Shown piece after piece: positions 4,268 through 41,172 of a stretch of DNA of 58,470 nt. The DNA is taken from NCBI GenBank assembly GCA_964503755.1, contig CAZDBO010000002.1:194261-252730 (forward strand), written 5' to 3'. The stretch is from an uncultured Candidatus Saccharibacteria bacterium. Lineage in GTDB: Bacteria; Patescibacteriota; Dojkabacteria; JAOAGR01. The notes below the pieces were generated by a model, which was not told the DNA's origin, did no database searches, and worked only from the letters and a program-made list of their open reading frames with translations. Position 1 is the first letter of the stretch, and each line of letters starts with the position of its first letter. Made by a program: the position numbers and the translations under genes.

Positions 4268-4893
4268 TTATTTTGTCTAATAACCAAAGCATCTTCCGTC
4301 GCTATTAGTACATATTTTCTTTTTTCATTCATCACCTGATTTCCAGCACCTGATATAAATACCGTATCTACACAAAAATCTAGATGCTTATTCTCATAAA
4401 AATCATAAAAAGTTTTATCAAATCCGCCATTTATATCGATATAATCATTTGGATAATTGTTATCTTTTTTAATGTAATCCGATTGTATTCGATATACTTT
4501 TAACATTGGTTTTAATCCTAACATTACGCATACATCTTTCCACTTTACAAAAATGGCCTCAATCATAAACTTGTCCCCCCTAAATTCTGAACTTAATGAC
4601 AGATTAGTATCATTTCCCTCTGTTTTATAAAAAATATAATTCTTCGGAAGACTTTTTGATGTATACTTTAGATGAAACGTAGGTATACCATCCTTGATGA
4701 CTCTTTCTGATATTTCAATTTCAGCTATTTCTGTTTCTTGTGTAAATACCTGATACGTATAAAGCCAAGCATTAATCATAAAAAACAATGAAAAAGTCAA
4801 TATAATAAATAAAATTATAACTATGAACAATGTGCTAAATATGATTCTATTCTTTAATGAAAAACTTTTGCTCTTATCATTTTGCTGTTGCAT
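4264..4893 (-). CDS. Uncharacterized N-terminally membrane-anchored protein
   Basis: 209-aa ORF, one long N-terminal TM, soluble domain with GDKFMIEAIFVKWK..MLGLKP; TATAAT 7 nt upstream of ATG. Confidence 0.75.
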   Translation of the reverse strand: MQQQNDKSKSFSLKNRIIFSTLFIVIILFIILTFSLFFMINAWLYTYQVFTQETEIAEIEISERVIKDGIPTFHLKYTSKSLPKNYIFYKTEGNDTNLSLSSEFRGDKFMIEAIFVKWKDVCVMLGLKPMLKVYRIQSDYIKKDNNYPNDYIDINGGFDKTFYDFYENKHLDFCVDTVFISGAGNQVMNEKRKYVLIATEDALVIRQNN

Positions 4894-4963
4894 AGACTTA
4901 ATTATAAATTAAAGTGTTTCATTTAGCACTTTAATATGATTTAATTACACTTAAGAAAAAATA

Positions 4964-7105
4964 ATGAATACTAATAAAAAATTTGAATTAGATTATAATT
5001 TACCGGTTGCGCAGTATGAAGATATCATTATAGAAAAACTTCAAACATCCAATAACATAATTATAGTAGGGGATACTGGATCAGGAAAAACAACTCAGAT
5101 CCCCTTGATACTAATAAATCAATTCACTGACGCCAAAATTGTTGTAACAGAACCTCGCAGGATAGCAGCAACGTCTCTTTGTAATTATCTTTCACAGTGG
5201 ACGCTCACTACACCTGGAGATTTGATTGGATACAAAATAAGATTTGAAGAGAAAAAAAGCGAAAAAACCAAATTACTTTTCGCAACTGATGGAATTTTAC
5301 TGAGAGAATGTTTATTTGATCCTTTACTTTTGAAATACGACATTATAATGGTCGATGAGGCACACGAGAGAGGAATTAATACAGACTTTTTAATAGGATT
5401 ATTAGTACAAATCCAGAATAAACGGAATACAGAAAACCACAAACCACTCAAAATAATTGTTACATCAGCTACATTAGAAGAAGAAAAATTTATTAAATTC
5501 TTCGAAGAAAATGCTATATATCCTCCAGAGATTATCAGAGTACCAGGTCGCAATTATGATGTAGATGCGTATTTACTAAAAGAAGAAGTCAATGATTTTT
5601 ATAAACAAATAGTAACCGCTCTAAAATACATTATCAACAACAAAATACCATCAAATTTCATATACGATGATACTCTTAGTACAAAAGGAAACATAGAAAA
5701 TAACAATACTACATACAAATATAATAATATTTTAATTTTCTTACCAGGTAAAAGGGAAATAAATCTGACTAAAAATCTTATTCAAGAACAAATTCGTGAT
5801 ATTGATGTTTTAACAGTACATTCCGAATTGCCAATTCAAGAGCAAAACGAAATTTTCAAACAAATTACAAAAACAACAGCCATTTTAGCAACAAATATTG
5901 CCGAAACATCACTTACGATACCAAATGTCAAATATATTATCGATACAGGACTTATTAAATCAATGGAATACGACACAAATAGTGGGATAAAATCTTTAAA
6001 AACACATTATCATTCAAAGCATGGAATACTTCAGAGACGGGGTAGGGCAGGAAGGCTATGCCATGGTATATATCTGGGTTTATTTACAAATAGTCAATAT
6101 AACGATTTTTTAGAATATTCTATTCCTGAAATCTTACGATCCAAACTAAACGAAATAACTCTGTTACTTATATCTTTGGGAATAAAAGAAATAGAGAATT
6201 TTCATTTTATAGATAAACCTAAAAATTCATTTATCAAAAAATCTATCGAAGAGTTAGTATCCATTGGGGCTATAACTAAAAAAAGAATAATAACGGACAA
6301 AGGACTAAAACTGTTATCAATGCCCTTGGATCCATTTATCGGTAATATAATATTAGAAGCTCAGAACGAAGGAGTTGTATATGAAATATGTACTTTAATT
6401 CCACTTTTTGAGTCTAAACCATTATTTTACGAACTAAATGTATCAATATTAAATAAAATATATGGAAAACATATCGATAAATTTAATAGTCAAGAAGAAT
6501 TAATAGATCACATATATAGAAGTAGAGAAAGCATAGTAAATCAAAAATCAGACTATCTAACTTATATAAAATTGATAAATAAACTTTCTTATCACAATTA
6601 TTCTACAGATTGGTGTGATCTCTATGGTGTGAATGGTGAAGCATTATTAGAATGTATCAAAATCCGTGATGATCTTCTTAAACTAGCTGAAGAAAATAAT
6701 ATCCGTATAAATAAAAATATCAACTTCTATTCGCCTAAAATAGACATCGTTCTCTTTAAAACACTTAAGTACAATTTATTAATTAGAATAGGTAAAAACA
6801 AATTTAGAGCTTTGAATCACAAAAATATGATTGTAAAAATAAATCCGGGCAGTATTTTATATAACAATGCAAATACAAATTTACTAATTTCAAACGAGAT
6901 CATTCAAATAGACGATATCTATCAATATTCGCGATCTTATAGTGTGCGTTTAGCTCATTCTATAGATATAAAAATAATTCAGAGATTATCTCCAAAACTT
7001 TATCAAAAAATAATTAGACAAAAATTTAACAAAAAACATAGAAAATTTTACGTCAAAGGTAAAAAACGATATAAAAACCGTCAAATAAGAAAGTATAAAC
7101 ATTAA
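4964..7105 (+). CDS. hrpA: DEAH-box RNA helicase, HrpA-like
   Basis: GDTGSGKTTQ, DEAHER, TSAT, ATNIAETSLT, QRRGRAGR; HA2-like region; very basic C-terminal tail. Confidence 0.85.
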   Translation: MNTNKKFELDYNLPVAQYEDIIIEKLQTSNNIIIVGDTGSGKTTQIPLILINQFTDAKIVVTEPRRIAATSLCNYLSQWTLTTPGDLIGYKIRFEEKKSEKTKLLFATDGILLRECLFDPLLLKYDIIMVDEAHERGINTDFLIGLLVQIQNKRNTENHKPLKIIVTSATLEEEKFIKFFEENAIYPPEIIRVPGRNYDVDAYLLKEEVNDFYKQIVTALKYIINNKIPSNFIYDDTLSTKGNIENNNTTYKYNNILIFLPGKREINLTKNLIQEQIRDIDVLTVHSELPIQEQNEIFKQITKTTAILATNIAETSLTIPNVKYIIDTGLIKSMEYDTNSGIKSLKTHYHSKHGILQRRGRAGRLCHGIYLGLFTNSQYNDFLEYSIPEILRSKLNEITLLLISLGIKEIENFHFIDKPKNSFIKKSIEELVSIGAITKKRIITDKGLKLLSMPLDPFIGNIILEAQNEGVVYEICTLIPLFESKPLFYELNVSILNKIYGKHIDKFNSQEELIDHIYRSRESIVNQKSDYLTYIKLINKLSYHNYSTDWCDLYGVNGEALLECIKIRDDLLKLAEENNIRINKNINFYSPKIDIVLFKTLKYNLLIRIGKNKFRALNHKNMIVKINPGSILYNNANTNLLISNEIIQIDDIYQYSRSYSVRLAHSIDIKIIQRLSPKLYQKIIRQKFNKKHRKFYVKGKKRYKNRQIRKYKH

Positions 7106-16432: not shown

Positions 16433-17593
16433 TTATATGTCTTCAAAAATCTCACCATCCAACTCATCATAAATACCACCATCATAATAATCAGAATATT
16501 CTCCAATATCAGGATTAGTGATTTTATAATCTGTTTGCTCTTCCTCGTTAGATGATGAATTAAAACTGGCATCATTCATAAAATTATCTTCATTTCCTGT
16601 AGTATCATTGTAATCATTAACATTATTATTACTACTATTACTATTCTCCCCTGGTGAAACATAATCACTATTTTGAGAATCTGGTAAGCTATTTGATCTG
16701 ATTCTGGTAAAAATTTTTTCAAGAACAGTAATCACAACATTGTCCACTTCAAAATCTTCTACCAAAAAAGAAAAATCTTTAATCAGCTTATAATCGTTAG
16801 GTATATCTAAAAGATAAATCTTCGGATTAAGTTTATCATTTGGTTTTAAACTGTATGTTTCAAAAGTAGCACTAACTTTTACTTTTTCATTATATTCTTC
16901 CTGATACTCTAGAAATATTAGATTCAAAATCGGAGTACTATTTTCTACATCTTTCATAAAATCTAAAAATTTATCTTTAGGACCTGTTATTTCTAGATTT
17001 ATTTTTATTAAGCGACCAACACCACGATTATTAGTCACAAAATCAGGTACGAACTCATACTCACCGGAACCTAGACGAGTAAATTTTGCTTTATTCACTG
17101 TTGTGGTCTCAGGTTGTTGAGTGTCTTCATTAATCTCTCTATCTTCAGCAATACTACGTTCTAAGCCATAATAATCAGCTTTTTGTTGTAGCTGATCAAC
17201 TAAGTTACCAACTAAAATTTCCTCTGGTAATATCTCAGCCAATCGATTTTCATAATCCAATAGTAAACTATAGTTTGACTGAGCACGGATTAGGTTCGAA
17301 AAGTTTTGATCCAGAATTTTTTTATCTTCAGTATATTTTACAACGTAGTTATTATAATTAAAGAAAGATTCTATTGCAGGAAGAACGAAATAAAAAATAG
17401 AAACTCCGAAAAGAATAATTACAAATATGGGATATCCATAGTACACAATTTTGTTTTCTCTTACTTTTTTAAGTAATAACTTATATCTTTCCGATTCCGC
17501 CTGTTTTTTTTGTTCAAGTATAGGATCATCAACTAGCTGATCCAAAGTAAAATTTTTATTTTCTAAATTTTTTTGTGGTATTTCGTTATTCAT
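16433..17593 (-). CDS. pilO: Type IV pilus alignment protein PilO-like with an acidic low-complexity C-terminal tail
   Basis: TM, coiled coil, ILPEE..LVDQLQQKA..GL and LEITG..FLDFMKDVEN patterns; follows pilM and pilN-like genes. Confidence 0.65.
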   Translation of the reverse strand: MNNEIPQKNLENKNFTLDQLVDDPILEQKKQAESERYKLLLKKVRENKIVYYGYPIFVIILFGVSIFYFVLPAIESFFNYNNYVVKYTEDKKILDQNFSNLIRAQSNYSLLLDYENRLAEILPEEILVGNLVDQLQQKADYYGLERSIAEDREINEDTQQPETTTVNKAKFTRLGSGEYEFVPDFVTNNRGVGRLIKINLEITGPKDKFLDFMKDVENSTPILNLIFLEYQEEYNEKVKVSATFETYSLKPNDKLNPKIYLLDIPNDYKLIKDFSFLVEDFEVDNVVITVLEKIFTRIRSNSLPDSQNSDYVSPGENSNSSNNNVNDYNDTTGNEDNFMNDASFNSSSNEEEQTDYKITNPDIGEYSDYYDGGIYDELDGEIFEDI

Positions 17594-19343: not shown

Positions 19344-22300
19344 CTACAATCCAACAACTGAACGATTGTATCTAGAAGGGCCAGAACCAATATATTCTCC
19401 AGCCCTCAAAGCCAGTATTGGATCATACATGATATGTATATAAGGATAGCGAGGATCATCGTCATAATTTTCACTTGGTTCACCTGATTGTCTAAAAATA
19501 AGGTTCGGATTCTGATATATAAAACAATAAGTTACTTGTGAAGGATGATTACATTCTGAAGTTCGTTCTCTTAATACAATACGATTAGTATAAACACTAC
19601 CATAAACAATATTTGTCGTTGTACTGTAATCAGTGGTCAATGACTCTCTTGCTATAAACATACCTTTATATAAATTGAAAGACGATTGATTATTAAAATT
19701 AACCACATTATTACTTAAATTATATGAACCAGTACCCACAAACTCTATCCTGTTTGCAAAAAATATATACTTAGTTTCAGATAAACTATCAGAATACGTC
19801 AAAAGCATGGAATTATTAGATGGACCATAGCTAGCAATTTGACTTCTAGGATTAATCTTCAAGGTACAATTTGGACAAAAAACAATGACAATACCACCTT
19901 CATTTTCTGTAGTCGGATAAGTAAAATTGATTGTATACTCTGTATTTGTATCCGCAGTTTCAGGTTCATACATTACTATCGTACCTGATGGAGTAGGAGT
20001 AATTGAAGAATCTCTATCTCGTACTGGTATCTTTTCTACTATATTTCCCAAATTATTTTGCAAATTTGATAACTTTGCCTGAATATTGTTTATATATGTA
20101 TTATTATCTCGACTAATACGATAATCCACACCTAAGACCATGAATACTGCGTCTATAGAACTATTGCTTACTATGTAATCAAAAATTTTATGATCACCAT
20201 TTGGATTACCTACCTGTGTATTTTTTAACCCAACATCTCCTCTTTGAGTACTGTAAAATAGGTTCATGCAAGGACGACTTCTGTCAAATCTATTAGAAAA
20301 ATCACTTATACTTTGTCCTCCCAAAGTAGTAGTACCATTCTGTGAGAAAACCACATTCCGTCTTCCTAAGTTGTCACGGACAATGACATAAAGAGTTAAA
20401 CTAGTATCTGTCAATCTTGTCGCATCTATTTGGATATCATTACGTCCGCCTTGCAATACCCTTATACGAACAAGCGGATTTACCTGTGATGATGTTAAAG
20501 GATTTAATAATTCTGTTATCTGTTGATCAGTCATTTCATTAGTGATACCAGTCAAAGGTGCACTATTATTAAACCTATAATAAATTCTTTCTATTGTTCC
20601 TCTCAGCGGTATTATGGTTATATTCCATCTATATGGAGTAATACAACTAGAAGAAATTTGGAAACTTGATAGGCTATCAAATGTTCCTGTTGCAGGTGGA
20701 TTACCTGTTGGTGGGTTACCTGGGGGACCACCTGGTGGATTATTTTGCCCATTAATATTACAATCAAATGTCAACTGGTTATTTGTAGTGACTCGTAAAA
20801 GTATAGGTATATTTCGAGATCCAGCTAAATTATTAAACTCGGTTCTTGCGAAAATTGAACGCGGTATATTTATATTATAATTCAGGTTAACACCATCATT
20901 ATTTGAATTAATTGTATATTGATTATTTGTAACATTTGCTGTGGAATTTGATCTAATAATACTTAAAGTACCTGTGTCGTTAAGGTTATCATCTTGTATA
21001 GAGATATTACTTAAATCAATAGAATATCTACTAATAGAACTGATATTTGAAAATACTGCATCATTAATACGGAAAGATAAAGATAAACCTGAATTTAATA
21101 AATCAACATTACCGCTTGGTGAATTTATAACGCATCTAACACTAGAATTATATCGAGTTTGGATCACACAATAATTACTACAGTTTTGAGCTGGACTTGC
21201 AGGTCTTGAACTACTACCCGATACTTCATATACCATACCCCCCGATGGAGATGGTCCTGCATTCCTACACCATCTATTACCATTTACCCAATCTACATAA
21301 TTTACTCCAAAAACTATACCTTGTGAAAAGTCCAAGACTCTACCAGAACAATTAGAGCCTGGTGCATTTGGCATGTTTGTAGTTATTCCGTTATATATAT
21401 TATCTGGCACACGAAAAGTCGCGATAGTTAGGTTTCCCTGGATATTTATACTACTATTATTACTATTGATCAAATAATAATTACACCGATCATCCAATTG
21501 TGTACCCATTAGGTTTGCTGGTCTCATCCAAAATGTACTAAAGTTTGGTGCATTTGAATGTCGCACGGAAGAAATTGTGACTACAGAACCCGGTCTAGGT
21601 AAACCTATAATAGTGTTATCTGAAAATATACTATTAACACTCCTAGAAACCTCTTGACTACTATTTATTGGGGTATATCTTATTTCCATGGATTGACATG
21701 AATCAGGTATAGAAGGTATAGACCTGTATACATAATGCCATACCATATTTTGGTTTGTTACCATGCCCTCTCCATTGTGTGGAGCTATATATCCTTGATC
21801 TTTGGCAAACATGCGAAAATTATTTCCTACAAAATAATAATAGTTACCATTCATCACTACCTGAAATACACCACCATAAGGTATTTGTTGATTACTACAA
21901 TTTATAGTATATGAGGTTATTGAGCCAGAATTAATTCTATACCATCTATAACCACTACACCGATCAGGCCTTCCATCTTGATCATCATAATAATAAGAAA
22001 AATACAAATTATTTCCAATAACAGAAAAATCGCCAATTGAAACATCATAGTTTGAAACATTAAAGCTATTGATAAAATTATTTGTAGTACAATTATTTGA
22101 ACTTATTGAACATGTTGCTATGTTAATCGAATCATAATCTATGTTATTTGATCGAATACGCTGTGAATATAATACGTAAAATGTATTATTAGCATAATAC
22201 AACGATGATCCAGTTACATTATTTCCTTGTGGAATTTGATATAATTGAGTGATTGAAAAACGATTTAAAGATGTATCTAACACAATTCTTCCAATTCTGA

Positions 22301-23255
22301 CGGGCTCATAAGTAACATCTAATCCCCCTGAAGAATTCCTTAGGACATTGACTCTATTGTATACAACATAATTGTTTTCTTGTCCAAGGCTAAAAACATC
22401 AAGTAAACGAAAATATAATCTATCTACAGGAGTAAAATTACGATATGTAGCCAATGTAGGATTTGGCTCATTAATACCAGGATAATACGCACATAATGCT
22501 GTATTATTATTTTTATACGAGCAATGATTTATTCTAATAGAACTCGTATTAATCTGGCCATTTAAAATTATATTTTTAATATCAAACCAAACTTGATTAT
22601 TTTGTCCTGCATTTTTATCATCACTAAAGACACCCACAAAATACGCTATGTTATTTTGAAAGTGTTTAAAAGTCATCCACCAATCTTCTGATCCTACTCT
22701 GCCAGTACCAATGTTAAGAAATCTATGTATATTATATTCCGTCCGTCTGAGTGAACCTGAATCAAAATAATATATAAGTAAAAAGAAATCACTATTTAAG
22801 GATCTTTTCGCAACCGTAATAAAACCTCCACCCAAACTGTTATTGCTAGTATTATCAAAATCATTTACCATCACTAAACTATAAAATCCGAAATCGCTAC
22901 CATATCGTAAATCTAAATTAGAGTTACTTGAAGGATTATCCCACGAACCAACTCCATTATTCCCTGATCCATTAAATATACGAATTCTTACGAACGTTGT
23001 TATGCTACCATTTGAAAAAATTTTTTCACCGAATACTCCCAATATAGCTTCAGGGTTAGAATTGCTACCAGTCCTGACTTTATCAATTCCTAGAATATTA
23101 TTATTTGGAGATGTTAAAGTTAAACCACTCGATAAGTTATTGGAAGCAGGAGGAACATCTAATACCTGAGCACGAGCAAAAAAACCTATTCCCAGAAGAA
23201 TATAAGAAGTAAAAAAAACAAATAGAAAAATTATAATTTTAATATTTTTTGTCAT
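19344..23255 (-). CDS. Giant (1303 aa) secreted protein, putative pilus-associated adhesin in the PilY1 position
   Basis: Signal peptide, N/S-rich beta domains, Cys pairs, PPGGPPGNPP linker, beta-helix-like C-terminal region; lies directly downstream of the minor pilin run. Confidence 0.55.
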   Translation of the reverse strand: MTKNIKIIIFLFVFFTSYILLGIGFFARAQVLDVPPASNNLSSGLTLTSPNNNILGIDKVRTGSNSNPEAILGVFGEKIFSNGSITTFVRIRIFNGSGNNGVGSWDNPSSNSNLDLRYGSDFGFYSLVMVNDFDNTSNNSLGGGFITVAKRSLNSDFFLLIYYFDSGSLRRTEYNIHRFLNIGTGRVGSEDWWMTFKHFQNNIAYFVGVFSDDKNAGQNNQVWFDIKNIILNGQINTSSIRINHCSYKNNNTALCAYYPGINEPNPTLATYRNFTPVDRLYFRLLDVFSLGQENNYVVYNRVNVLRNSSGGLDVTYEPVRIGRIVLDTSLNRFSITQLYQIPQGNNVTGSSLYYANNTFYVLYSQRIRSNNIDYDSINIATCSISSNNCTTNNFINSFNVSNYDVSIGDFSVIGNNLYFSYYYDDQDGRPDRCSGYRWYRINSGSITSYTINCSNQQIPYGGVFQVVMNGNYYYFVGNNFRMFAKDQGYIAPHNGEGMVTNQNMVWHYVYRSIPSIPDSCQSMEIRYTPINSSQEVSRSVNSIFSDNTIIGLPRPGSVVTISSVRHSNAPNFSTFWMRPANLMGTQLDDRCNYYLINSNNSSINIQGNLTIATFRVPDNIYNGITTNMPNAPGSNCSGRVLDFSQGIVFGVNYVDWVNGNRWCRNAGPSPSGGMVYEVSGSSSRPASPAQNCSNYCVIQTRYNSSVRCVINSPSGNVDLLNSGLSLSFRINDAVFSNISSISRYSIDLSNISIQDDNLNDTGTLSIIRSNSTANVTNNQYTINSNNDGVNLNYNINIPRSIFARTEFNNLAGSRNIPILLRVTTNNQLTFDCNINGQNNPPGGPPGNPPTGNPPATGTFDSLSSFQISSSCITPYRWNITIIPLRGTIERIYYRFNNSAPLTGITNEMTDQQITELLNPLTSSQVNPLVRIRVLQGGRNDIQIDATRLTDTSLTLYVIVRDNLGRRNVVFSQNGTTTLGGQSISDFSNRFDRSRPCMNLFYSTQRGDVGLKNTQVGNPNGDHKIFDYIVSNSSIDAVFMVLGVDYRISRDNNTYINNIQAKLSNLQNNLGNIVEKIPVRDRDSSITPTPSGTIVMYEPETADTNTEYTINFTYPTTENEGGIVIVFCPNCTLKINPRSQIASYGPSNNSMLLTYSDSLSETKYIFFANRIEFVGTGSYNLSNNVVNFNNQSSFNLYKGMFIARESLTTDYSTTTNIVYGSVYTNRIVLRERTSECNHPSQVTYCFIYQNPNLIFRQSGEPSENYDDDPRYPYIHIMYDPILALRAGEYIGSGPSRYNRSVVGL

Positions 23256-23662
23256 ACTCTAAACCCACTTAAATATTTTTTTACACTTTCTATAAGACTT
23301 TTATTTGTCATAGCCATTTTATTAAAGTATCCATCACATCCTTTTTCATATGCATACCGTATCGTATTAACTACTCCCACGTTGGTTAACATTACGACGA
23401 CCGGTGTGCCATATTTTTCTGGATTTGTTTTAACTTTATCAAGTACCTCAATACCACTGATACCCTCAGGCATCATTATGTCTAAAAGTAAAAGATCATA
23501 TTTTTTTTGTACTATTTTTTCTAACGCCTCATCACCACGAGTTGAAGTATCTATATCATGAAATCCTGCACTATTTAAAGCCTCAACCAACATTTCTAGT
23601 ATATCCTGTTCATCATCCAGTATAAAAATTTTTTTATCAAATATATCACTATCTTGATTCAT
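23252..23662 (-). CDS. Single-domain response regulator (CheY-like receiver)
   Basis: ILDDE, LLDIMMP (phosphoacceptor Asp), VMLTN, YFNK all intact; no output domain. Confidence 0.92.
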   Translation of the reverse strand: MNQDSDIFDKKIFILDDEQDILEMLVEALNSAGFHDIDTSTRGDEALEKIVQKKYDLLLLDIMMPEGISGIEVLDKVKTNPEKYGTPVVVMLTNVGVVNTIRYAYEKGCDGYFNKMAMTNKSLIESVKKYLSGFRV

Positions 23663-26600: not shown

Positions 26601-27035
26601 TTACTCAGATTGAATATAAGTAACCTTGTTTATTTTTACATTTTTTTTGGAGGATTCAATTATGGCATCAGCATCTGTTTTTGCTCTATCTGGATTTTCT
26701 GTATCGAATATATAAACAACAATATGATCGCTTACATAAGGTGTAAAAAATTCAATTGAGAATCTTTCATCGGGATCATAATAAGGAATACTATTTTTTG
26801 CATATAATTCAGCTTGATAAAAAATATCATCTTCAATTCTCCTCTCAGCACTTTGAAAAGGTTGATCTATGACTTCATTCGAAGTATTAAAAACACCAAG
26901 CATAGATAAAATCGCGTATGTAAAGATACCACAAGTCAAAAGGGAAAAAACGGACGCAAGATAAAAATTAATTTTCTTTTGCTTTTCTACAAATTCTTCT
27001 TTTTTCTTAAATTTATAAATATTTGAACTTTTCAT
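26601..27035 (-). CDS. Hypothetical single-TM protein
   Basis: One TM (FYLASVFSLLTCGIFTYAILSMLGVF); start moved to ATG 27035 because the longer ORF overlaps tRNA-Pro. Confidence 0.65.
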   Translation of the reverse strand: MKSSNIYKFKKKEEFVEKQKKINFYLASVFSLLTCGIFTYAILSMLGVFNTSNEVIDQPFQSAERRIEDDIFYQAELYAKNSIPYYDPDERFSIEFFTPYVSDHIVVYIFDTENPDRAKTDADAIIESSKKNVKINKVTYIQSE

Positions 27036-27053
27036 CCAAAAAATACTAAATAT

Positions 27054-27130
27054 TGGTCGGGGTAAGCAGACTCGAACTGCTGATCTCAAGACCCCCAGCC
27101 TTGTGCTTTAGCCAACTAAGCTATACCCCG
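27054..27130 (-). tRNA. tRNA-Pro, anticodon GGG
   Basis: Cloverleaf: acceptor CGGGGTA/TACCCCG, anticodon arm CAAGG-CTGGGGG-TCTTG, T-loop TTCGAGT, encoded CCA. Confidence 0.97.
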
Positions 27131-31742: not shown

Positions 31743-33542
31743 GTGATGCCGGCTGGTGTAATAACAAGTATTTTAGATGTACTCTTAAACGAAAATATAA
31801 TCTCGGCTGATCAATACAAACAAATTAAAAATGAATCATTAATTAAAAAAATCCCACCAGAAAAACTACTATTAGAATGCAAATTAGTAAACGAAGAACA
31901 AATAACGCATGCAAAATCTATTCTTTACGGCTTGCCAATCATTGATATTAAATCGATTAAAATCGATAAACAAATATTATCTTTATTACCAATAGATGAA
32001 TGTAAAAAAAACAAAATCATAATCTTTGAAAAAAAGACTGACAATACATATAAGGCTGCTATTGCAAATCCACTTAATCTACAATATTTAAGACTTATTG
32101 AACAAAAGATAAATGGAAGACTAGAGCTATTTGTAGCAAACGAAAGTGATATAAAATCTGTATTAAGCCAATTCACAGATACTAAGATAAGTTCTGAATT
32201 TTCAAATGTCATAGAAAAAGCAAAATCTGACGAGGATATAATCGATATATCGAAAATCGAAGACACAAAACTTAACGATGTTGATCTAAAAAACACCCCG
32301 ATTGCGAAACTAGTTACTCTTATCATCCAAACCGCAATAATAGAAAAATCTTCAGATATTCATATTGAACCACAAGAAAACATAATAAGAGTAAGATACA
32401 GGATAAACGGAATTTTGATAGAAAAGATTACGATTCCACCTGCACTTGGTCCTGCATTAGTTTCAAGAATAAAAATACTTGGGAAAATGCCAATTGATGA
32501 AAAAAGAAAACCACTCGATGGTCGCTCACAAATAAAATATGAAGGTAATGAAATAGATCTGCGTATATCATCCTTACCAACAGTATGGGGAGAAAAAATT
32601 GTAATACGTTTACTTAGGAAAGATCTTGGTATCTTAAACCTTGAAGATACAGGTATGAGAGGAAATGCCCTAAAAGTATTTAAAGAAGGATTAAAAGCAA
32701 CTACTGGTATTATACTAGTCACAGGCCCTACAGGTTCGGGAAAAACCGTGACAGTTGCTACTAGCATGTCTATATTAAACAAACCAGAAGTAAATATAGT
32801 TTCTATTGAAGATCCGGTTGAAATCCGTATTCCAGGAATCAATCAAGTGCAGGTAAATGAGGAAGCTGGTCTTACATTTGCATCAGCTCTAAGAGCATTT
32901 TTAAGACAAGATCCTGATATCATATCTGTAGGAGAGATACGTGACCAAGAAACCGCACAACTAGCAGCACAGGCTTCGTTGACGGGTCATCTCGTAATCT
33001 CAACATTACATACAAATAGTGCTGCAGGAACATTACCACGACTTTTGGATATGGGAATAGAACCATATATTGTGGCATCAACCGTGACTATATGTTGTGC
33101 ACAGAGACTCTGTCGGAGAATTTGTAAACATTGCAAATATGCTTATCATGCCAAAGAAGAAGAAATATTAGAATTACGAAGAGTTTTAGGTCATACTTCT
33201 TATTTCGATGAAAACAAATATTTACAATTCCAATCTAAACTCATAGAGACACAAAAAATACCCATTGAAAATACGAATTTAGAATCAAATAACATATTTC
33301 TATTTAAAGGAAGAGGATGTGAAAAATGCAATTTTACTGGATATACTGGTCGAATTGGTATATTTGAAGTATTTAAAGTTTCAGAAAAAATCGGAGCACT
33401 TGTAATGAAACATGCAAGTACGAGTGAAATCGAAAATCAAGCAATTAGCGAAGGGATGATAAGAATGGTAGAAGATGGATATTTTAAAGCATTAGAAGGA
33501 ATTACTGCCATCGAAGAAGTTCAAAGAGTAATACATTCATAA
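31743..33542 (+). CDS. pilB: Type IV pilus assembly ATPase PilB/GspE
   Basis: N-terminal MshEN-like region, GPTGSGKT, EDPVE, LRQDPDII.VGEIRD, STLHTN, CxxC..GCEKC zinc site; ATG alternative at 31746. Confidence 0.95.
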   Translation: MMPAGVITSILDVLLNENIISADQYKQIKNESLIKKIPPEKLLLECKLVNEEQITHAKSILYGLPIIDIKSIKIDKQILSLLPIDECKKNKIIIFEKKTDNTYKAAIANPLNLQYLRLIEQKINGRLELFVANESDIKSVLSQFTDTKISSEFSNVIEKAKSDEDIIDISKIEDTKLNDVDLKNTPIAKLVTLIIQTAIIEKSSDIHIEPQENIIRVRYRINGILIEKITIPPALGPALVSRIKILGKMPIDEKRKPLDGRSQIKYEGNEIDLRISSLPTVWGEKIVIRLLRKDLGILNLEDTGMRGNALKVFKEGLKATTGIILVTGPTGSGKTVTVATSMSILNKPEVNIVSIEDPVEIRIPGINQVQVNEEAGLTFASALRAFLRQDPDIISVGEIRDQETAQLAAQASLTGHLVISTLHTNSAAGTLPRLLDMGIEPYIVASTVTICCAQRLCRRICKHCKYAYHAKEEEILELRRVLGHTSYFDENKYLQFQSKLIETQKIPIENTNLESNNIFLFKGRGCEKCNFTGYTGRIGIFEVFKVSEKIGALVMKHASTSEIENQAISEGMIRMVEDGYFKALEGITAIEEVQRVIHS

Positions 33543-33572: not shown

Positions 33573-33586
33573 ATATATATATATAT
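33573..33586. repeat. (AT)7 dinucleotide run ending in the pilT start codon
   Basis: atatatatatatat(g) seen directly. Confidence 0.8.
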
Positions 33587-35558
33587 GAACGACAATAATA
33601 TAGCAAGCCCTTTTCTAGAACAACAAGTGAATAACTTTTCTACATCATCGGGGCAACAACAAAATACACAACCTATCCTGACTCAAACTCAGCAACAAAT
33701 CCAAGCATTTCAACAAGTCCAACAAAATCAACAAAATTTTTCAACACAGCAAATAGATACAAATTTTGATGGTCAAAATATACCAAATAATAAAATCTTC
33801 AGTAACTCAAATGTAAATACACCTGAAGTATTTCAATATCCATCCCAACCCACAGCAAATAATTTATTGAATCAACCCGAACAAATTTTTAATGGCCAAA
33901 ACTCTTTTGATCAACAACAGTATTTAGGGGGAAATGATTATAACAATAATACAAATGTCTATTCGAACAATTCAGAAAATGACATGAGTTTTAACACACA
34001 AGATATAACATCTAATTTACAATCCAATCCAAGCCAAGACAATTTAAATCAATCTCAAATTATTAATAACGAATCGTTTAATAATTTTCAACAGATCTCA
34101 AATAATCAAGGTAATCAAACGGATTTTACAACATCAATAGGGGGTTATGTTTCACCATACGCCCAACAATTATCCAGCCAACAAATTACAAATACCGATG
34201 TATTACAACCTGAAAGTAACCCAAACTATAATGCCAGTGGAGTAGAACAGAACTCAATGGATATAAATTCAGATAACATAGCAACAGCACCAAACACCAA
34301 TCAAACGCAGGATAATAATCCTAATGTATCTCCAAATCAATCTTCTAACATATTTAATCAATCAGAATCATTTGACAACTCAACAAACATTTATACAACA
34401 AATAATTCTTCATCCGATCAAAATATAAATACTACTGAAGAATTAAATCCACAGAACATTTACGACGTTAAAACAAATACTACCATCAAAAAAGAAAGAT
34501 TTAAAAGTATTTCTGAGTTGTTAGATAAAGTTTTAGAATTAAAAGGATCAGATCTCCATATTGCAGCAGGCTATCCTCCCACTATACGTATCGATGATAT
34601 TTTAAGACCGGTTGGGGATACTCTTACAAAAGAAGAAGTTAAAAATTTCGTTTTCCAATCACTATCTCAAGGTCATAAAGAATTGTTAGAAATCAACAAA
34701 GAAGTTGATCTTTCTTATCAACATGAAGATAAAGCAAGATTTAGAATAAATGCTTACTTCGCAAGAAACTCGTATGCTGCTGCTTATCGCCTGATTCCTC
34801 AACGGATCAGATCATTAACCGAACTTGGTTTACCAAATATATTGTTAGAATTAACAAAATACTCTCAAGGATTATTTCTGGTAACAGGCCCTACTGGTTC
34901 TGGTAAATCAACCACCCTTGCGGCAATGATACAACATATTAATGAAACAGAAGCAAAACACATCTTAACAATTGAAGATCCAATCGAATATGTATATCCA
35001 AAGGCAAAAGCATTTGTCAGTCAAAGAGAAATAGGAACTGACACGCATGATTGGAATATAGCTCTTCGCAGTGCATTAAGAGAAGATCCTGATGTCATAT
35101 TGGTTGGTGAATTGAGAGATTTAGAAACTATCCAATCAGCACTTACTTTATCAGAAACAGGACATTTAGTTTTTGCAACATTACACACTAATAGTGCGGC
35201 TCAATCAATAGATCGTATAATTGACGTATTTCCGCCACACCAACAAGAACAAATTAAAAATCAATTAGCCGGAGTCTTAAAGGGTATACTTAGTCAAAGA
35301 CTAGTTCCACTTATTGGCGGAGGTAGAAAAGCTGTAATAGAGCTAATGATAGTAACACCAGCCATACAAAATCTTATAAGAGAAGGAAAAGTATTTCAAA
35401 TTGACAATGTCATAGCAACAAGTGCTGATCTAGGTATGATTCAACTAGAAAAATCCCTCGTTCAGTTGATTAGGGCTGGTGCAATAACAGTGGATACGGC
35501 ATTTGAATATGCAATACGCCCAAATGAACTACAAAAAATGCTAAAAATTAATATGTAA
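33585..35558 (+). CDS. pilT: Type IV pilus retraction ATPase PilT with a ~295-aa Q/N-rich N-terminal extension
   Basis: SDLHI, GPTGSGKSTT, EDPIEY, LREDPDVI.VGELRD, AIQNLIRE (AIRNLIRE variant) from about 34490 onward. Confidence 0.93.
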   Translation: MNDNNIASPFLEQQVNNFSTSSGQQQNTQPILTQTQQQIQAFQQVQQNQQNFSTQQIDTNFDGQNIPNNKIFSNSNVNTPEVFQYPSQPTANNLLNQPEQIFNGQNSFDQQQYLGGNDYNNNTNVYSNNSENDMSFNTQDITSNLQSNPSQDNLNQSQIINNESFNNFQQISNNQGNQTDFTTSIGGYVSPYAQQLSSQQITNTDVLQPESNPNYNASGVEQNSMDINSDNIATAPNTNQTQDNNPNVSPNQSSNIFNQSESFDNSTNIYTTNNSSSDQNINTTEELNPQNIYDVKTNTTIKKERFKSISELLDKVLELKGSDLHIAAGYPPTIRIDDILRPVGDTLTKEEVKNFVFQSLSQGHKELLEINKEVDLSYQHEDKARFRINAYFARNSYAAAYRLIPQRIRSLTELGLPNILLELTKYSQGLFLVTGPTGSGKSTTLAAMIQHINETEAKHILTIEDPIEYVYPKAKAFVSQREIGTDTHDWNIALRSALREDPDVILVGELRDLETIQSALTLSETGHLVFATLHTNSAAQSIDRIIDVFPPHQQEQIKNQLAGVLKGILSQRLVPLIGGGRKAVIELMIVTPAIQNLIREGKVFQIDNVIATSADLGMIQLEKSLVQLIRAGAITVDTAFEYAIRPNELQKMLKINM

Positions 35559-35569
35559 ATAATATAAAT

Positions 35570-36790
35570 ATGGCTATATTCAATTACAAAGTAATTGACC
35601 AAAAAAAACAAATCAGATATGGCGAAATTGAAGCAGAAAATTTAGAACAAGCATCAGATTTTTTGTTATCACAAAATCTAACTATACTTCAACTAAAAAA
35701 GAAAGGAATAGATCTAGAAGCATTACAAAAAATTAATATTGGCGGTATACCTCTAAAAGAAAAGGTCACTTTTATAAGACAACTGGCATTTATGGTTGAA
35801 GCTGGTATCCCATTGGTGCAAGCTTTGGAAATATCTCGCGAACAAATAATCAATCTTTATTTTAAGGATGTTGTAAAAAAAATTAAAGAAACCATTGAAG
35901 GTGGTAGTACATTATCTAAAGCACTATCTGCATATACCGATATATTTGATCCGTTAGAAATTAATTTGATAAGGGCAGGAGAAGAATCCGGCAATCTAGA
36001 TAAAATTCTTACAAGAGTTGCTGATGAATTAGAAAAAAAAGCTGATTTTCAAGCTCGAGTGCAAGGTGCTCTTATATATCCTGCAATTGTATTGATAATC
36101 ATAATTGTTGTTGTAGTTTTGCTTATGACTACAATGATTCCCCAAATGACTGAATTATATGAATCAATGAACCTAGAAATACCTCTAGCTACACAAATTG
36201 TTGTAAACATTAGTAAATTTATTACAAGTTGGGGAGGAATTGTATTGCTTGTATCTATAATATTTGCATTTGGATCGTTATTTTATTATTACAGCACCCC
36301 CTCAGGTAAAAAAGTTTTAGATAAACTTGTATTAAAAATACCAATAGCAGGTGAAATTATTGGTAAATCTCAGGTCGTCTCATTTGCTAATACATTTTCG
36401 ATGCTTTTAAGTGCAGGTATTCCTATAGTAGATGCTCTAAATCTAGTAGGAAATTCTTTATCCAACAAAACTTTCCAAGATGCTATCGAAGAATGTGCAA
36501 AAAAAGTAGAAAAAGGTATACCATTATCTTCTCCTTTGTTAGCAAATCCTGATATACCACCACTGCTTGGTCATATGATTAGAGTAGGTGAGGAGATAGG
36601 TAAAGTAGATGAAGTAACTTTCAAGGTTGGCATACAATTTCAAAAAGAGGTTGACAATCTAGTAAATAACTTAAACAAACTGATGGAACCAATGATTCTT
36701 ATTTTGATGGGTGTTGTAGTAGGTGGTCTTGCGATCGCGGTATATTTACCAATATTCAATCTTGCAACTGCTATTGGAATGCCTCAGTAA
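35570..36790 (+). CDS. pilC: Type IV pilus platform protein PilC/GspF
   Basis: Two T2SSF repeats (FIRQLAFMVEAGIPL; AGEESGNLD; FSMLLSAGIPI; VGEEIG), 3 TMs. Confidence 0.95.
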   Translation: MAIFNYKVIDQKKQIRYGEIEAENLEQASDFLLSQNLTILQLKKKGIDLEALQKINIGGIPLKEKVTFIRQLAFMVEAGIPLVQALEISREQIINLYFKDVVKKIKETIEGGSTLSKALSAYTDIFDPLEINLIRAGEESGNLDKILTRVADELEKKADFQARVQGALIYPAIVLIIIIVVVVLLMTTMIPQMTELYESMNLEIPLATQIVVNISKFITSWGGIVLLVSIIFAFGSLFYYYSTPSGKKVLDKLVLKIPIAGEIIGKSQVVSFANTFSMLLSAGIPIVDALNLVGNSLSNKTFQDAIEECAKKVEKGIPLSSPLLANPDIPPLLGHMIRVGEEIGKVDEVTFKVGIQFQKEVDNLVNNLNKLMEPMILILMGVVVGGLAIAVYLPIFNLATAIGMPQ

Positions 36791-41094: not shown

Positions 41095-41172
41095 TGGGGT
41101 GAAAGACGGGACTCGAACCCGCGACCTCCTCTTCCACAGAGAGGCGCTCTAACCAACTGAGCTACTATCACC
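41095..41172 (-). tRNA. tRNA-His, anticodon GTG
   Basis: Cloverleaf with encoded G-1 opposite C73, anticodon arm CCTCT-CTGTGGA-AGAGG, TTCGAGT loop, CCA; one U5:U68 acceptor mismatch. Confidence 0.96.

What the first reader, a model, noticed from the sequence alone, without database searches (positions are those of the whole stretch)
33585..34490. PilT retraction ATPase fused to a ~295-aa prion-like Q/N-rich disordered domain
Seen: a continuous ORF whose first ~295 residues are dominated by Q/N/S/T with regularly spaced F/Y, with a single Lys and no Arg, His, Cys or Trp before YDVK. A complete PilT follows (AIQNLIRE). Established: canonical PilT is about 350 aa with no such extension, and Q/N-rich sequences with spaced aromatics are the signature of prion-like, phase-separating domains. 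Inference: a hexamer displaying six such tails could condense or cluster the motor at a pole or host-contact site, or act as an autoinhibitory or heritable switch for retraction. I know of no described T4P motor like this. It sits with the orphan receiver and the PilO tail in a possibly novel pilus control system.
Basis: partly seen in the sequence, partly recalled or inferred. Interest (0 to 1): 0.82.

Follow-up and report, generated by a model that had tools for sequence, protein, structure and literature searches.

The report
PilT motor with long disordered arm
A pilus-retraction motor in an uncultured ultra-small bacterium (Dojkabacteria) carries a real, translated 292-residue floppy, glutamine/asparagine-rich N-terminal arm, but what its relatives conserve is a tiny docking-type motif (GYxSPY) and an acidic, lysine-free character rather than the "prion-like" composition.

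Summary
ORF 33585-35558 (+) encodes 657 aa. Residues 1-292 are 38% Q+N with one Lys and no Arg/His/Cys/Trp. A complete PilT follows (TIGR01420 450 bits; AIQNLIRE). The arm is translated: the frame stays open although 94 of 292 codons are one step from a stop. Three diverged relatives keep the start MNDNN and only in-frame indels. dN/dS is 0.26-0.36 in the arm against about 0.02 in the core.

The arm is not unique. In a core-only search of 1.84 billion proteins, all 32 single-core relatives with at least 65% core identity carry 124-410-aa N-terminal extensions. GyrA places the window in Dojkabacteria/WS6. The relatives do not share Q/N richness (14-38 Q/N per 80 aa, tracking an AT-bias proxy). 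They share predicted disorder, net negative charge (94% of 144 arms) and short motifs. GYxSPY is invariant in 27/27 aligned sequences (window aa 187-192), and LNPxxD[LV] sits next to the core. Aromatic spacing is no more regular than in shuffles.

Best reading: a disordered acidic tether or regulatory arm with docking peptides, comparable to the CpaF N-terminal disordered region. Its binding partner is unknown. Prion or condensate behaviour is possible for this lineage's extra roughly 165-aa Q/N tract but is untested. I rate it a new variant of a known kind, of moderate interest.

The parts
33585..35558 (+). Whole gene: PilT retraction ATPase with an N-terminal disordered arm (657 aa plus stop). 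It is the middle gene of pilB-pilT-pilC.
   Evidence: the same gene order is found in L081-L084
33585..34460 (+). N-terminal arm, aa 1-292. Q/N/S/T-rich, net charge about -24, 1 Lys, predicted disordered.
   Evidence: composition; pLDDT <50, no secondary structure; dN/dS 0.26-0.36
33585..33662 (+). Conserved extreme N-terminus, aa 1-26 (MNDNNIASPFLEQQVNNFSTSSGQQQ). This is the start-codon region. 'M[ND]DNN' is shared with more distant relatives.
   Evidence: invariant M1 N2 D3 N4 N5 S8 P9 F10 L11 E12 Q13 Q14 ...; P0005 MNDQNN; P0083/P0103 MDDNNL
33585..34079 (+). Lineage-specific extra Q/N tract, about aa 1-165, lying upstream of the GYxSPY motif. It holds nearly all the 80-aa stretches with at least 30 Q/N. 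In other clade members the motif lies 23-50 aa from the start.
34122..34175 (+). Conserved island DFTTSIGGYVSPYAQQLS (aa 180-197). It contains the short linear motif GYxSPY (aa 187-192, nt 34143-34160).
   Evidence: G, Y, S, P, Y invariant in 27/27 sequences; they are the only invariant columns upstream of the core; 27 of 32 relatives at >=65% identity
34443..34469 (+). Motif next to the core, LNPQNIYDV (aa 287-295). It corresponds to LNPExDL in relatives. A short helical turn is predicted here.
34485..35558 (+). Folded PilT core (aa 301-657): N-terminal PAS-like domain plus ATPase domain. Walker A nt 34887-34913, Walker B 35085-35120, His box 35157-35189, AIQNLIRE 35361-35384.
31743..33542 (+). 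pilB (assembly ATPase; MshEN + T2SSE domains), immediately upstream with a 42-nt gap.
35570..36790 (+). pilC (platform protein, T2SSF domains), immediately downstream.

Best explanation
This is a genuine single-chain PilT retraction ATPase of a Dojkabacteria (WS6, Patescibacteria/CPR) bacterium. Its first ~292-300 residues form an intrinsically disordered, net-acidic N-terminal arm almost free of Lys and Arg. The arm is a trait of the clade, not a one-off.

In the window protein the arm consists of three conserved elements separated by fast-evolving polar spacer. The elements are a conserved extreme N-terminus (aa 1-26), an invariant short linear motif GYxSPY (aa 187-192), and a motif next to the core, LNPxxxxDV (aa 287-295). 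The spacer's Q/N richness reflects AT-biased drift under selection against basic residues and stops.

Proposed mechanism (inferred, not shown). Each PilT hexamer carries six flexible arms whose docking peptides bind a partner at the pilus base. Candidates are PilM, PilC, PilB and the cytoplasmic tail of the PilN/PilO proteins. Docking would keep the motor tethered near the machine or gate its engagement, so that extension and retraction can alternate quickly. The arm would tune pilus dynamics rather than catalysis, as reported for the N-terminal disordered region of the Tad motor CpaF.

Shown here: the fusion, its translation, predicted disorder, clade-wide conservation, the motifs, and purifying selection. 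Inferred: docking, the partner, and the effect on retraction.
For: Real and translated. The frame is open although 94 of 292 codons are one substitution from a stop. Three diverged lineages (dS 0.5-0.9) keep the start MNDNN and only in-frame indels. dN/dS is 0.26-0.36 in the arm against 0.015-0.025 in the core. The internal Met134 is not conserved in any of the three relatives, and Met225 is kept in only one. There is no ATG or GTG between codons 225 and 448. Missing Shine-Dalgarno sequences are the rule in this genome, so the lack of one here says nothing.

Clade trait. In an unbiased core-only HMMER search, every single-core representative above about 53% identity has a long N-terminal extension. 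All 32 relatives at >=65% identity have 124-410 aa. gyrA-def-holB | pilB-pilT-pilC | dprA synteny shows these are orthologues. GyrA hits are named Dojkabacteria/WS6.

Docking-type architecture. G, Y, S, P and Y of GYxSPY are the only invariant columns in the arm across 27 sequences. Other extended PilT groups likewise have a short N-terminal aromatic/hydrophobic motif ([DN]FxYP, or MPF[IV]DL) ahead of a long variable linker.

Disorder. pLDDT is below 50 and no secondary structure is predicted for aa 1-300 in two AlphaFold2 runs. The motif does not dock on the monomer core.

Selected physical property. 94% of 144 arms are net negative, median -17. In the window, 153 of 292 codons are one step from Lys, yet the four closest sequences have only 1-5 Lys.

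Precedent. Truncating the CpaF N-terminal IDR lowers pilus extension and retraction events without lowering ATPase activity (PMC12019362). A regulatory C-terminal IDR is reported in M. xanthus PilU (PMC13584747).
Against: No binding partner was identified. AlphaFold2 gave only a trivial confidence rise at the motif (residues 22-24 of the truncated model reach pLDDT >=50). The resemblance between the PilO-like N-tail (LDQLVDDPILEQ) and PilT arm motifs rests on four close sequences, and only 'DDPI..QKK' is conserved.

The window lineage has lost or blurred two motifs that relatives keep (DNLLDDPxQVxxIL and [IV]P[TS]V). It has also gained about 165 aa of Q/N-rich sequence upstream of GYxSPY, so its arm may have acquired a different or additional role.

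Other CPR groups (Saccharibacteria, Gottesman-, Davies-, Wolfebacteria) have canonical short PilTs. An arm is therefore not required for pilus function in small cells. All evidence is computational and comes from uncultured organisms.
Confidence: 0.55

Rival explanations
1. Prion-like or phase-separating domain. The Q/N-rich arm self-associates, clustering PilT hexamers into condensates or amyloid-like assemblies. These would act as a localisation device, an autoinhibitory store, or a heritable switch for retraction.
For: The arm meets the Q/N-rich criterion of at least 30 Q/N per 80 aa (maximum 36; 119 overlapping stretches, nearly all within aa 1-220). It is predicted disordered. It has 23 F/Y 'stickers', 14 of which stay aromatic in all four close relatives. 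Six arms per hexamer gives multivalency (established PilT hexamer, e.g. 2ewv and 6ojx). Fraction of charged residues is low at 0.089. From my own knowledge there is a precedent for a prion-forming Q/N-rich domain in a bacterial hexameric ATPase, Clostridium botulinum Rho.
Against: Q/N richness is not conserved among orthologous arms (14-38 per 80 aa; many are P/A/S/T-rich) and it tracks an AT-bias proxy. Aromatic spacing is not more regular than chance (P=0.31). Net charge is -24 with no counter-charge, and the arm has 15 prolines. From general knowledge, both features disfavour amyloid prions and homotypic coacervation. What is invariant is a six-residue motif, not the composition. There are no DNA repeat expansions. 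No PLAAC or PAPA score was computed and no experiment exists.
Confidence: 0.15
2. Autoinhibitory arm. The motif(s) fold back in cis or in trans onto the PilT hexamer (pore, subunit interface or N-terminal domain) and hold the motor off until a signal or partner displaces them.
For: The invariant SLiM and the conserved motif next to the core sit immediately before the first core helix. A regulatory or autoinhibitory role has been proposed for the IDR of M. xanthus PilU (PMC13584747), and allosteric modulation for the CpaF IDR (PMC12019362).
Against: Two AlphaFold2 monomer runs show no docking of the motif on the core (pLDDT about 32-41 around it). The hexamer context was not tested. Arm length varies from 124 to 410 aa in close relatives, which fits a tether better than a precise intramolecular latch.
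Confidence: 0.15
3. Functionless low-complexity expansion. In this reading the arm is tolerated compositional drift in a small AT-rich genome, with no role of its own.
For: The arm evolves 10-20 times faster than the core at non-synonymous sites. Composition follows the genomic bias proxy. Length is highly variable. Other CPR lineages manage with canonical PilT.
Against: dN/dS of 0.26-0.36 is well below 1, with dS the same as in the core. The ORF is kept despite 94 stop-adjacent codons, and Lys is avoided despite 153 Lys-adjacent codons. Every orthologue at >=65% identity keeps an arm. Five motif residues are as invariant as the catalytic residues. Streamlined ~0.7-0.9 Mb genomes (contig sizes) are unlikely to keep ~900 nt of useless coding sequence.
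Confidence: 0.1
4. Mis-called start. The real protein would start downstream, near 34490, and the upstream open frame would not be translated.
For: There is no Shine-Dalgarno sequence before 33585. In-frame ATG codons exist at codons 134 and 225, and a TTG at codon 312.
Against: Almost no gene in the window has a Shine-Dalgarno sequence. Met134 is Ile in all three close relatives, and Met225 is absent in two of three. TTG312 lies inside the first conserved core helix. The first 26 residues are the best-conserved part of the N-terminal half. The arm is under purifying selection and contains an invariant motif.
Confidence: 0.03

Closest known systems
Canonical PilT retraction ATPases (Aquifex aeolicus 2EWV/2GSZ, Geobacter metallireducens 6OJX, Pseudomonas aeruginosa 3JVV)
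   Same: Residues 301-657 align end to end with them (E=1.9e-104 to 1e-92). The core has Walker A, Asp box, Walker B, His box and the AIRNLIRE-type motif (AIQNLIRE). It scores 450 bits on TIGR01420 and sits between pilB and pilC.
   Different: The canonical proteins are about 345-390 aa and start within about 20 residues of the first helix. This one has 292-300 disordered residues in front.
CpaF, the Tad-pilus motor of Caulobacter crescentus, with its N-terminal intrinsically disordered region (PMC12019362)
   Same: It is a PilT/VirB11-like hexameric pilus motor with an N-terminal IDR that is invisible in cryo-EM. [quoted passage not shown] The IDR is present only in a subset of orthologues. 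This is the best functional analogy for a tether or regulatory arm.
   Different: The CpaF IDR is about 79 aa, is followed by a three-helix bundle, and belongs to a bifunctional Tad motor. Here the arm is 292 aa, Q/N-rich and net -24, sits on a dedicated T4aP-type PilT, and carries a different conserved motif.
Myxococcus xanthus PilU C-terminal IDR and the MXAN_6705 N-terminal extension (PMC13584747)
   Same: These are PilT-family paralogues with lineage-restricted disordered extensions. The PilU one is about 112 aa, conserved only in myxobacteria, and proposed to be regulatory or autoinhibitory.
   Different: The PilU extension is at the C-terminus. Both are shorter, come from a different phylum, and are not reported as Q/N-rich or as carrying this motif.
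Bacterial candidate prion domains, e.g. Clostridium botulinum Rho (from my own knowledge; not checked with the tools)
   Same: A Q/N-rich, disordered N-terminal region attached to a ring-shaped hexameric ATPase. The window arm meets the >=30 Q/N per 80 aa census criterion.
   Different: Prion behaviour was shown experimentally for Cb-Rho; nothing has been tested here. This arm is much longer, strongly acidic and contains prolines. Its Q/N richness is not kept in orthologues.
'Disordered linker plus terminal docking peptide' tethers such as the FtsZ C-terminal linker/peptide and the SSB linker/acidic tip (from my own knowledge)
   Same: The architecture matches: a long linker of variable length and composition, evolving fast, with a few invariant residues in a short peptide. 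That is the pattern seen.
   Different: The proteins are unrelated, the peptide here is N-terminal or internal, and the binding partner is unknown.
Tandem PilT-PilT proteins of Lentisphaerae (~732 aa)
   Same: They are also oversized PilT-family proteins and appear among the top hits.
   Different: Their extra length is a second ATPase core (two aligned stretches), not a disordered arm. Core identity is only 36-42%.

Membership tests
PilT/PilU family type IVa pilus ATPase (TIGR01420) | Whole-protein score above the curated cut-off and full-length match to the model | tested here: met
   450.6 bits against a cut-off of 319.1; aa 309-648 match model positions 2-343 of 343
PilT/PilU family type IVa pilus ATPase (TIGR01420) | Walker A, Asp box, Walker B and His box of the secretion-ATPase superfamily | tested here: met
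   GPTGSGKST 435-443, EDPIEY 464-469, DPDVILVGELRD 501-512, TGHLVFATLHT 525-535. All are invariant in relatives.
PilT proper (as opposed to PilU or PilB) | AIRNLIRE motif near the C-terminus, and best matches to solved PilT rather than PilU or PilB | tested here: met
   AIQNLIRE at 593-600. PilT chains score E=1e-104 to 1e-85, PilU 9n32 scores 1.4e-74, and PilB/GspE score >=1e-30.
PilT proper | Genomic association with a type IV pilus machine | tested here: met
   pilB-pilT-pilC operon. pilM, a PilN-like and a PilO-like gene, and pilins with N_methyl motifs lie at 16.4-27 kb.
PilT proper | Powers pilus retraction; ATPase activity; forms a hexamer | not testable with these tools
   Needs biochemistry or genetics.
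Prion-like / Q/N-rich domain | At least 30 Q+N in 80 consecutive residues (Michelitsch-Weissman census criterion; from my own knowledge) | tested here: met
   Maximum 36; 119 overlapping stretches qualify
Prion-like / Q/N-rich domain | Intrinsic disorder | tested here: met
   pLDDT <50 and no secondary structure over aa 1-300. This is an indirect predictor; IUPred was not available.
Prion-like / Q/N-rich domain | Depletion of charged residues and proline | tested here: inconclusive
   K/R are nearly absent, but D+E is 8.6%, net charge is -24 and Pro is 5.1%
Prion-like / Q/N-rich domain | Evenly patterned aromatic 'stickers' | tested here: not met
   Gap CV 0.805 against 0.898 +/- 0.167 in shuffles, P=0.31
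Prion-like / Q/N-rich domain | Composition conserved in orthologues, which would indicate that composition is the selected feature | tested here: not met
   The relatives' maximum is 14-38 Q/N per 80 aa. N and Q content correlate with the AT-bias proxy.
Prion-like / Q/N-rich domain | Above-threshold PLAAC/PAPA score; self-propagating aggregation or phase separation | not tested
Aggregation needs experiments.
IDR tether carrying short linear motifs | Short invariant peptide(s) embedded in otherwise unalignable, length-variable disordered sequence | tested here: met
   G, Y, S, P and Y are the only invariant arm columns in 27 sequences. Arm length is 124-410 aa. Arm dN/dS is 0.26-0.36.
IDR tether carrying short linear motifs | A defined binding partner for the motif | tested here: inconclusive
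   No docking on its own core in AlphaFold2 monomer models. The similarity to the PilO-like N-tail is weak. Complex prediction was not possible with these tools.

The most novel reading that the evidence does not exclude
Dojkabacteria, and probably further Patescibacteria lineages, have an undescribed class of 'armed' PilT retraction motors. A terminal docking peptide (GYxSPY; in other groups [DN]FxYP or MPF[IV]DL) sits on a 100-700-aa acidic disordered arm and tethers or gates the motor at the pilus base. In the window's lineage the arm has additionally gained a ~165-aa Q/N-rich tract. That tract could make the six-armed hexamer condense or switch state, as a prion-like layer of control over retraction in an episymbiont.
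Probability: 0.12. Interest if true: 0.75.

Novelty: new variant of a known kind. Interest (0 to 1): 0.5.

Why it matters
Type IV pili are the main known device by which cultivated Patescibacteria find, bind and move on their hosts (PMC12206443, PMC9894109). How these reduced cells control extension against retraction is unknown, and I am not aware of the regulators used by model bacteria having been described in them. A clade-wide disordered arm with an invariant docking motif on the retraction motor is a concrete candidate for that control. It is also testable: the motif peptides can be screened against the few pilus-base proteins, and versions with and without the arm can be compared in vitro. 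The case extends recent findings that disordered extensions tune pilus motors (CpaF, M. xanthus PilU) to a much larger and more widespread example. It is a caution as well: in an AT-rich genome, Q/N-rich 'prion-like' composition can be a by-product of mutational bias acting on a linker whose selected features are charge and a few motif residues.

Tried and rejected
1. Full-length homologue search. It could be biased by low-complexity words, so I repeated it with the core only against 1.84 billion representatives. The result was the same.

2. GTDB genome scan for taxonomy and distribution. It did show that many CPR PilTs are canonical. Taxonomy came from GyrA instead.

3. Cluster-member look-up for organism names. 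Only the Dojkabacteria label of P0040 was returned.

4. Two AlphaFold2 runs looking for the motif docking on the core. There was no docking, only a 3-residue rise to pLDDT >=50. The hexamer and complexes could not be modelled.

5. PilO-like protein as a candidate partner or motif-sharer. Only three close homologues exist and only 'DDPI..QKK' is conserved. I keep this as a lead and do not claim it.

6. Candidate second motif in the window protein. 'NNLLNQPEQIF' (aa 92-102) lies on the wrong side of GYxSPY and is not kept in P0002/P0003. The positional equivalent 'SDNIATAP' (aa 229-236) is degenerate. I treat this motif as lost or decaying in this lineage.

7. Repeat expansion as the origin of the arm. 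There is only a 9-nt x 4.8 CAACAAATC tract, so this is rejected.

8. Internal promoters or terminators. Counts equal those in shuffles, so the scan is uninformative.

9. Rfam. Nothing falls in the region.

10. Shine-Dalgarno evidence for the start. The genome lacks Shine-Dalgarno sequences generally, so this is uninformative.

11. Literature. I found no description of extended PilT in Patescibacteria or of a prion-like PilT.

12. PLAAC/PAPA scoring. I did not attempt it because I could not reproduce the parameter tables reliably.
Full report
**1. The observation**

The ORF listing gives one ORF at 33585..35558 (+), with an ATG start and 657 aa.

- 'YDVK' starts at residue 293.
- Residues 1-292 contain 63 N, 49 Q, 35 S and 24 T.

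I compared this with the other 44 ORFs of the window (17,129 residues; Q+N 11.2%, K+R+H+C+W 14.1%).

- Q+N is 112 observed against 32.7 expected (P=2.7e-33).
- Basic plus rare residues are 1 observed against 41.2 expected (P=2.6e-18).
- No other ORF in the window exceeds 35% Q+N in any 60-residue stretch; this one reaches 48%.

The C-terminal part is a complete PilT.

- Pfam T2SSE matches aa 309-575.
- NCBIfam TIGR01420 scores 450.6 bits against a cut-off of 319.1, over the whole model.
- The best solved relatives are PilT chains: 2ewv E=1.9e-104, 6ojx 1.2e-97, 3jvu 9.9e-93. They score ahead of PilU and far ahead of PilB/GspE.
- Walker A, Asp box, Walker B, His box and AIQNLIRE are all present.

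One part of the description fails. The aromatic residues are not regularly spaced: the gap CV is 0.805 against 0.898 +/- 0.167 in 20,000 shuffles (P=0.31).

**2. Is the arm translated?**

- The reading frame has no stop in 302 codons, while the other five frames have 18-35 stops.
- 94 of the 292 arm codons are one substitution away from a stop.
- Three close relatives were found. Their cores are 97.5-97.8% identical to the window's; their arms are 60-73% identical.
- All three begin with the same MNDNN, share a well-conserved first 26 residues, and differ from the window only by in-frame indels.
- Codon-level comparison of the window with loci L081 and L084 gives dS 0.5-0.9 in both arm and core. 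dN/dS is 0.26-0.36 in the arm and 0.015-0.025 in the core. The arm is therefore under purifying selection, relaxed but real.
Met134 is Ile in all three relatives, and Met225 is missing in two.
- The only start-like codon near the core, TTG312, lies inside the first core helix.
- The lack of a Shine-Dalgarno sequence means nothing here, because almost no gene in the window has one.
- No Rfam family, tandem repeat array or enriched promoter or terminator signal lies in the region.

**3. Organism and context**

The gene sits in a pilB (31743-33542) - pilT - pilC (35570-36790) operon. It is flanked by gyrA-def-holB on one side and dprA on the other. The same arrangement is present in the close relatives (L081, L082, L084) and in a relative with 69% core identity (L083).

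A pilM / PilN-like / PilO-like / pilin cluster lies at about 16.4-27 kb. It includes a stand-alone receiver protein.

Named GyrA homologues are almost all 'Candidatus Dojkabacteria' or 'candidate division WS6'. The one named PilT relative (P0040, 68% core identity by BLASTP; 67%) is also Dojkabacteria. GC content is about 30%.

**4. The arm is a clade trait**

I searched 1.84 billion representatives with the core alone, to avoid any low-complexity bias.

- Every single-core hit above about 53% identity has the core starting 120-520 residues, and in some up to 750, into the protein.
- Canonical ~350-aa PilTs appear only at 53% identity and below.
- Combining both searches, all 32 single-core relatives at >=65% core identity have arms of 124-410 aa. 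Arms are still present in most relatives down to about 50% identity.
- Other CPR lineages recovered from GTDB genomes (Saccharibacteria, Gottesman-, Davies-, Wolfe-, Lipton- and Kaiserbacteria) have ordinary short PilTs at about 47-54% identity. The trait is therefore lineage-restricted, not general to CPR.

**5. What is conserved in the arm**

Composition is not conserved.

- The maximum Q+N per 80 residues ranges from 14 to 38 among 33 relatives. About a third reach 30.
- Over 144 arms, N and Q fractions rise with an AT-bias proxy taken from the core (FYMINK/GARP ratio): Spearman rho 0.54 and 0.46. A and G fractions fall (rho -0.58 and -0.38).

Three things are conserved.

- Predicted disorder. 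Two AlphaFold2 runs give pLDDT below 50 and no secondary structure for aa 1-300, with a confident PilT fold after that.
- Net negative charge. 94% of 144 arms are net negative, with a median of -17. In the window, 153 of 292 codons are one step from a Lys codon, yet the four closest sequences have only 1-5 Lys.
- Short linear motifs. In an alignment of 27 sequences, the only invariant columns upstream of the core are G, Y, S, P and Y of 'GYxSPY' (window aa 187-192). 27 of 32 relatives at >=65% identity match G[YF]xSP[YF].

A motif next to the core, LNPExDL (window: LNPQNIYDV, aa 287-295), is also widespread. Relatives carry two more motifs, DNLLDDPxQVxxIL and [IV]P[TS]V. Both are degenerate or lost in the window lineage.

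In relatives GYxSPY lies 23-50 residues from the start, but in the window lineage it lies at residue 187. This lineage has therefore gained about 165 residues upstream of the motif. That gain holds nearly all the Q/N-dense stretches.

More distant armed PilTs show the same plan with other N-terminal motifs: [DN]FxYP in one group and MPF[IV]DL in another.

**6. Mechanism**

The pattern is a long, fast-evolving linker of variable length, with a selected charge and a handful of invariant residues in short peptides. This is the signature of a disordered tether carrying docking motifs. My knowledge of FtsZ and SSB linkers supplies the analogy; I did not test that comparison here.

Within pilus motors the closest precedent is CpaF. 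Its 79-residue N-terminal IDR is dispensable for ATPase activity, but removing it lowers both extension and retraction events (PMC12019362). M. xanthus PilU has a lineage-specific 112-residue C-terminal IDR with a proposed regulatory role, and MXAN_6705 has a disordered N-terminus (PMC13584747).

I therefore propose that the six arms of the hexamer dock on a component of the pilus base and tether or gate the retraction motor. The partner is unknown.

- AlphaFold2 monomer models show no docking on the protein's own core.
- The PilO-like protein's cytoplasmic tail (LDQLVDDPILEQ) resembles both the relatives' DNLLDDP motif and the window's N-terminal SPFLEQQ. Only three close homologues exist and only DDPI..QKK is conserved. 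This is a lead only.

**7. The prion-like reading**

This reading is not excluded for this lineage. The arm passes the Q/N census criterion, is predicted disordered, has 23 aromatic residues, and would be hexavalent.

Several findings count against prion-like behaviour being the selected function.

- The composition is not conserved and follows the mutational bias proxy.
- Aromatic patterning is not regular.
- The arm has a large uncompensated negative charge and 15 prolines.
- The invariant features are motifs.

PLAAC and PAPA were not available. I give this reading about 0.15.

**8. Novelty and verdict**

I found no paper describing extended PilTs in Patescibacteria. The Saccharibacteria pilus papers and the CPR protein-family survey mention PilT only as conserved. 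No paper in the library links PLAAC-type bacterial prion analysis with twitching motility.

Disordered extensions on pilus ATPases are known, so this is a new variant of a known kind. It is unusually long, is conserved across a clade, and carries an invariant motif. It is not a categorically new system.

Interest is 0.5. The finding is real and gives a testable handle on pilus control in CPR bacteria. However, the eye-catching 'prion-like' label is probably a compositional by-product.

Noticed in passing
relatives P0083, P0093, P0103, P0107, P0109, P0128, P0131-P0133 etc. (group B); P0145-P0171 etc. (group C): Armed PilT representatives at 47-62% core identity carry other short N-terminal motifs ahead of long variable arms. 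One group has [DN]F[AST]YP, often after 'MDDNN[LI]' (the window protein starts MNDNNI). Another begins 'MPF[IV]DL[NS]'. This suggests a broad, undescribed family of N-terminal docking peptides on PilT.
   Followed up: partly
proteins P0006, P0010, P0014, P0017 ... (about 60 of the hits): PilT-family proteins of ~720-750 aa, named Lentisphaerae/Lentisphaeria where a name is given, consist of two tandem PilT cores in one polypeptide (two aligned stretches, 36-42% identity).
   Followed up: no
L057:about 4400-5000 and L075:about 4500-5000 (upstream of the PilT core): In a Coriobacteriia locus and an actinobacterial locus the PilT reading frame extends about 170-200 aa upstream. Those sequences look like response-regulator receiver domains (e.g. 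'MAAKKALIVHDDAGLVEQVK...'), which would be receiver-PilT fusions. Start codons in these high-GC loci were not verified.
   Followed up: no
window 16433-17593 (-): PilO-like protein with no Pfam hit: a cytoplasmic N-tail, one TM helix and an outer domain. Its N-tail 'LDQLVDDPILEQKKQ' resembles PilT arm motifs. It also has an acidic, N/S-rich ~80-aa C-terminal tail (containing 'DYVSPG') that varies or is absent in its three known homologues.
   Followed up: partly
window 23252-23662 (-): A stand-alone 136-aa response-regulator receiver domain is embedded in the pilin / large-protein cluster, immediately downstream of (overlapping by 4 nt) a 1303-aa protein with no Pfam match (19344-23255). No kinase was seen among the ORFs I scanned.
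   Followed up: no
whole window (upstream 30 nt of 46 ORFs): Almost no gene has a recognisable Shine-Dalgarno sequence. The upstream regions are simply A/T-rich, which suggests SD-independent initiation in this organism.
   Followed up: partly
window 41098-41171 (-) tRNA; 41218-42258 (-) tyrosine recombinase; 42000-47000: A tRNA gene lies directly beside a phage-integrase-family recombinase. Next to them is a stretch of lower GC (0.24-0.27 against about 0.31). This may be an integrated element or a Xer-type recombinase locus.
   Followed up: no
window 27057-27130 (-) vs ORF 26601-27089 (-): A tRNA (61.8 bits) overlaps the 5' end of the mechanically listed TTG-start ORF 26601-27089. That ORF's real start, if it is a gene, must lie further downstream.
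   Followed up: no
window 33693-33735: The only repeat in the arm's DNA is a 9-nt unit (CAACAAATC) x 4.8 at 67% match, encoding QQI/QQV/QQN. The low complexity is therefore compositional and not a recent slippage expansion.
   Followed up: yes
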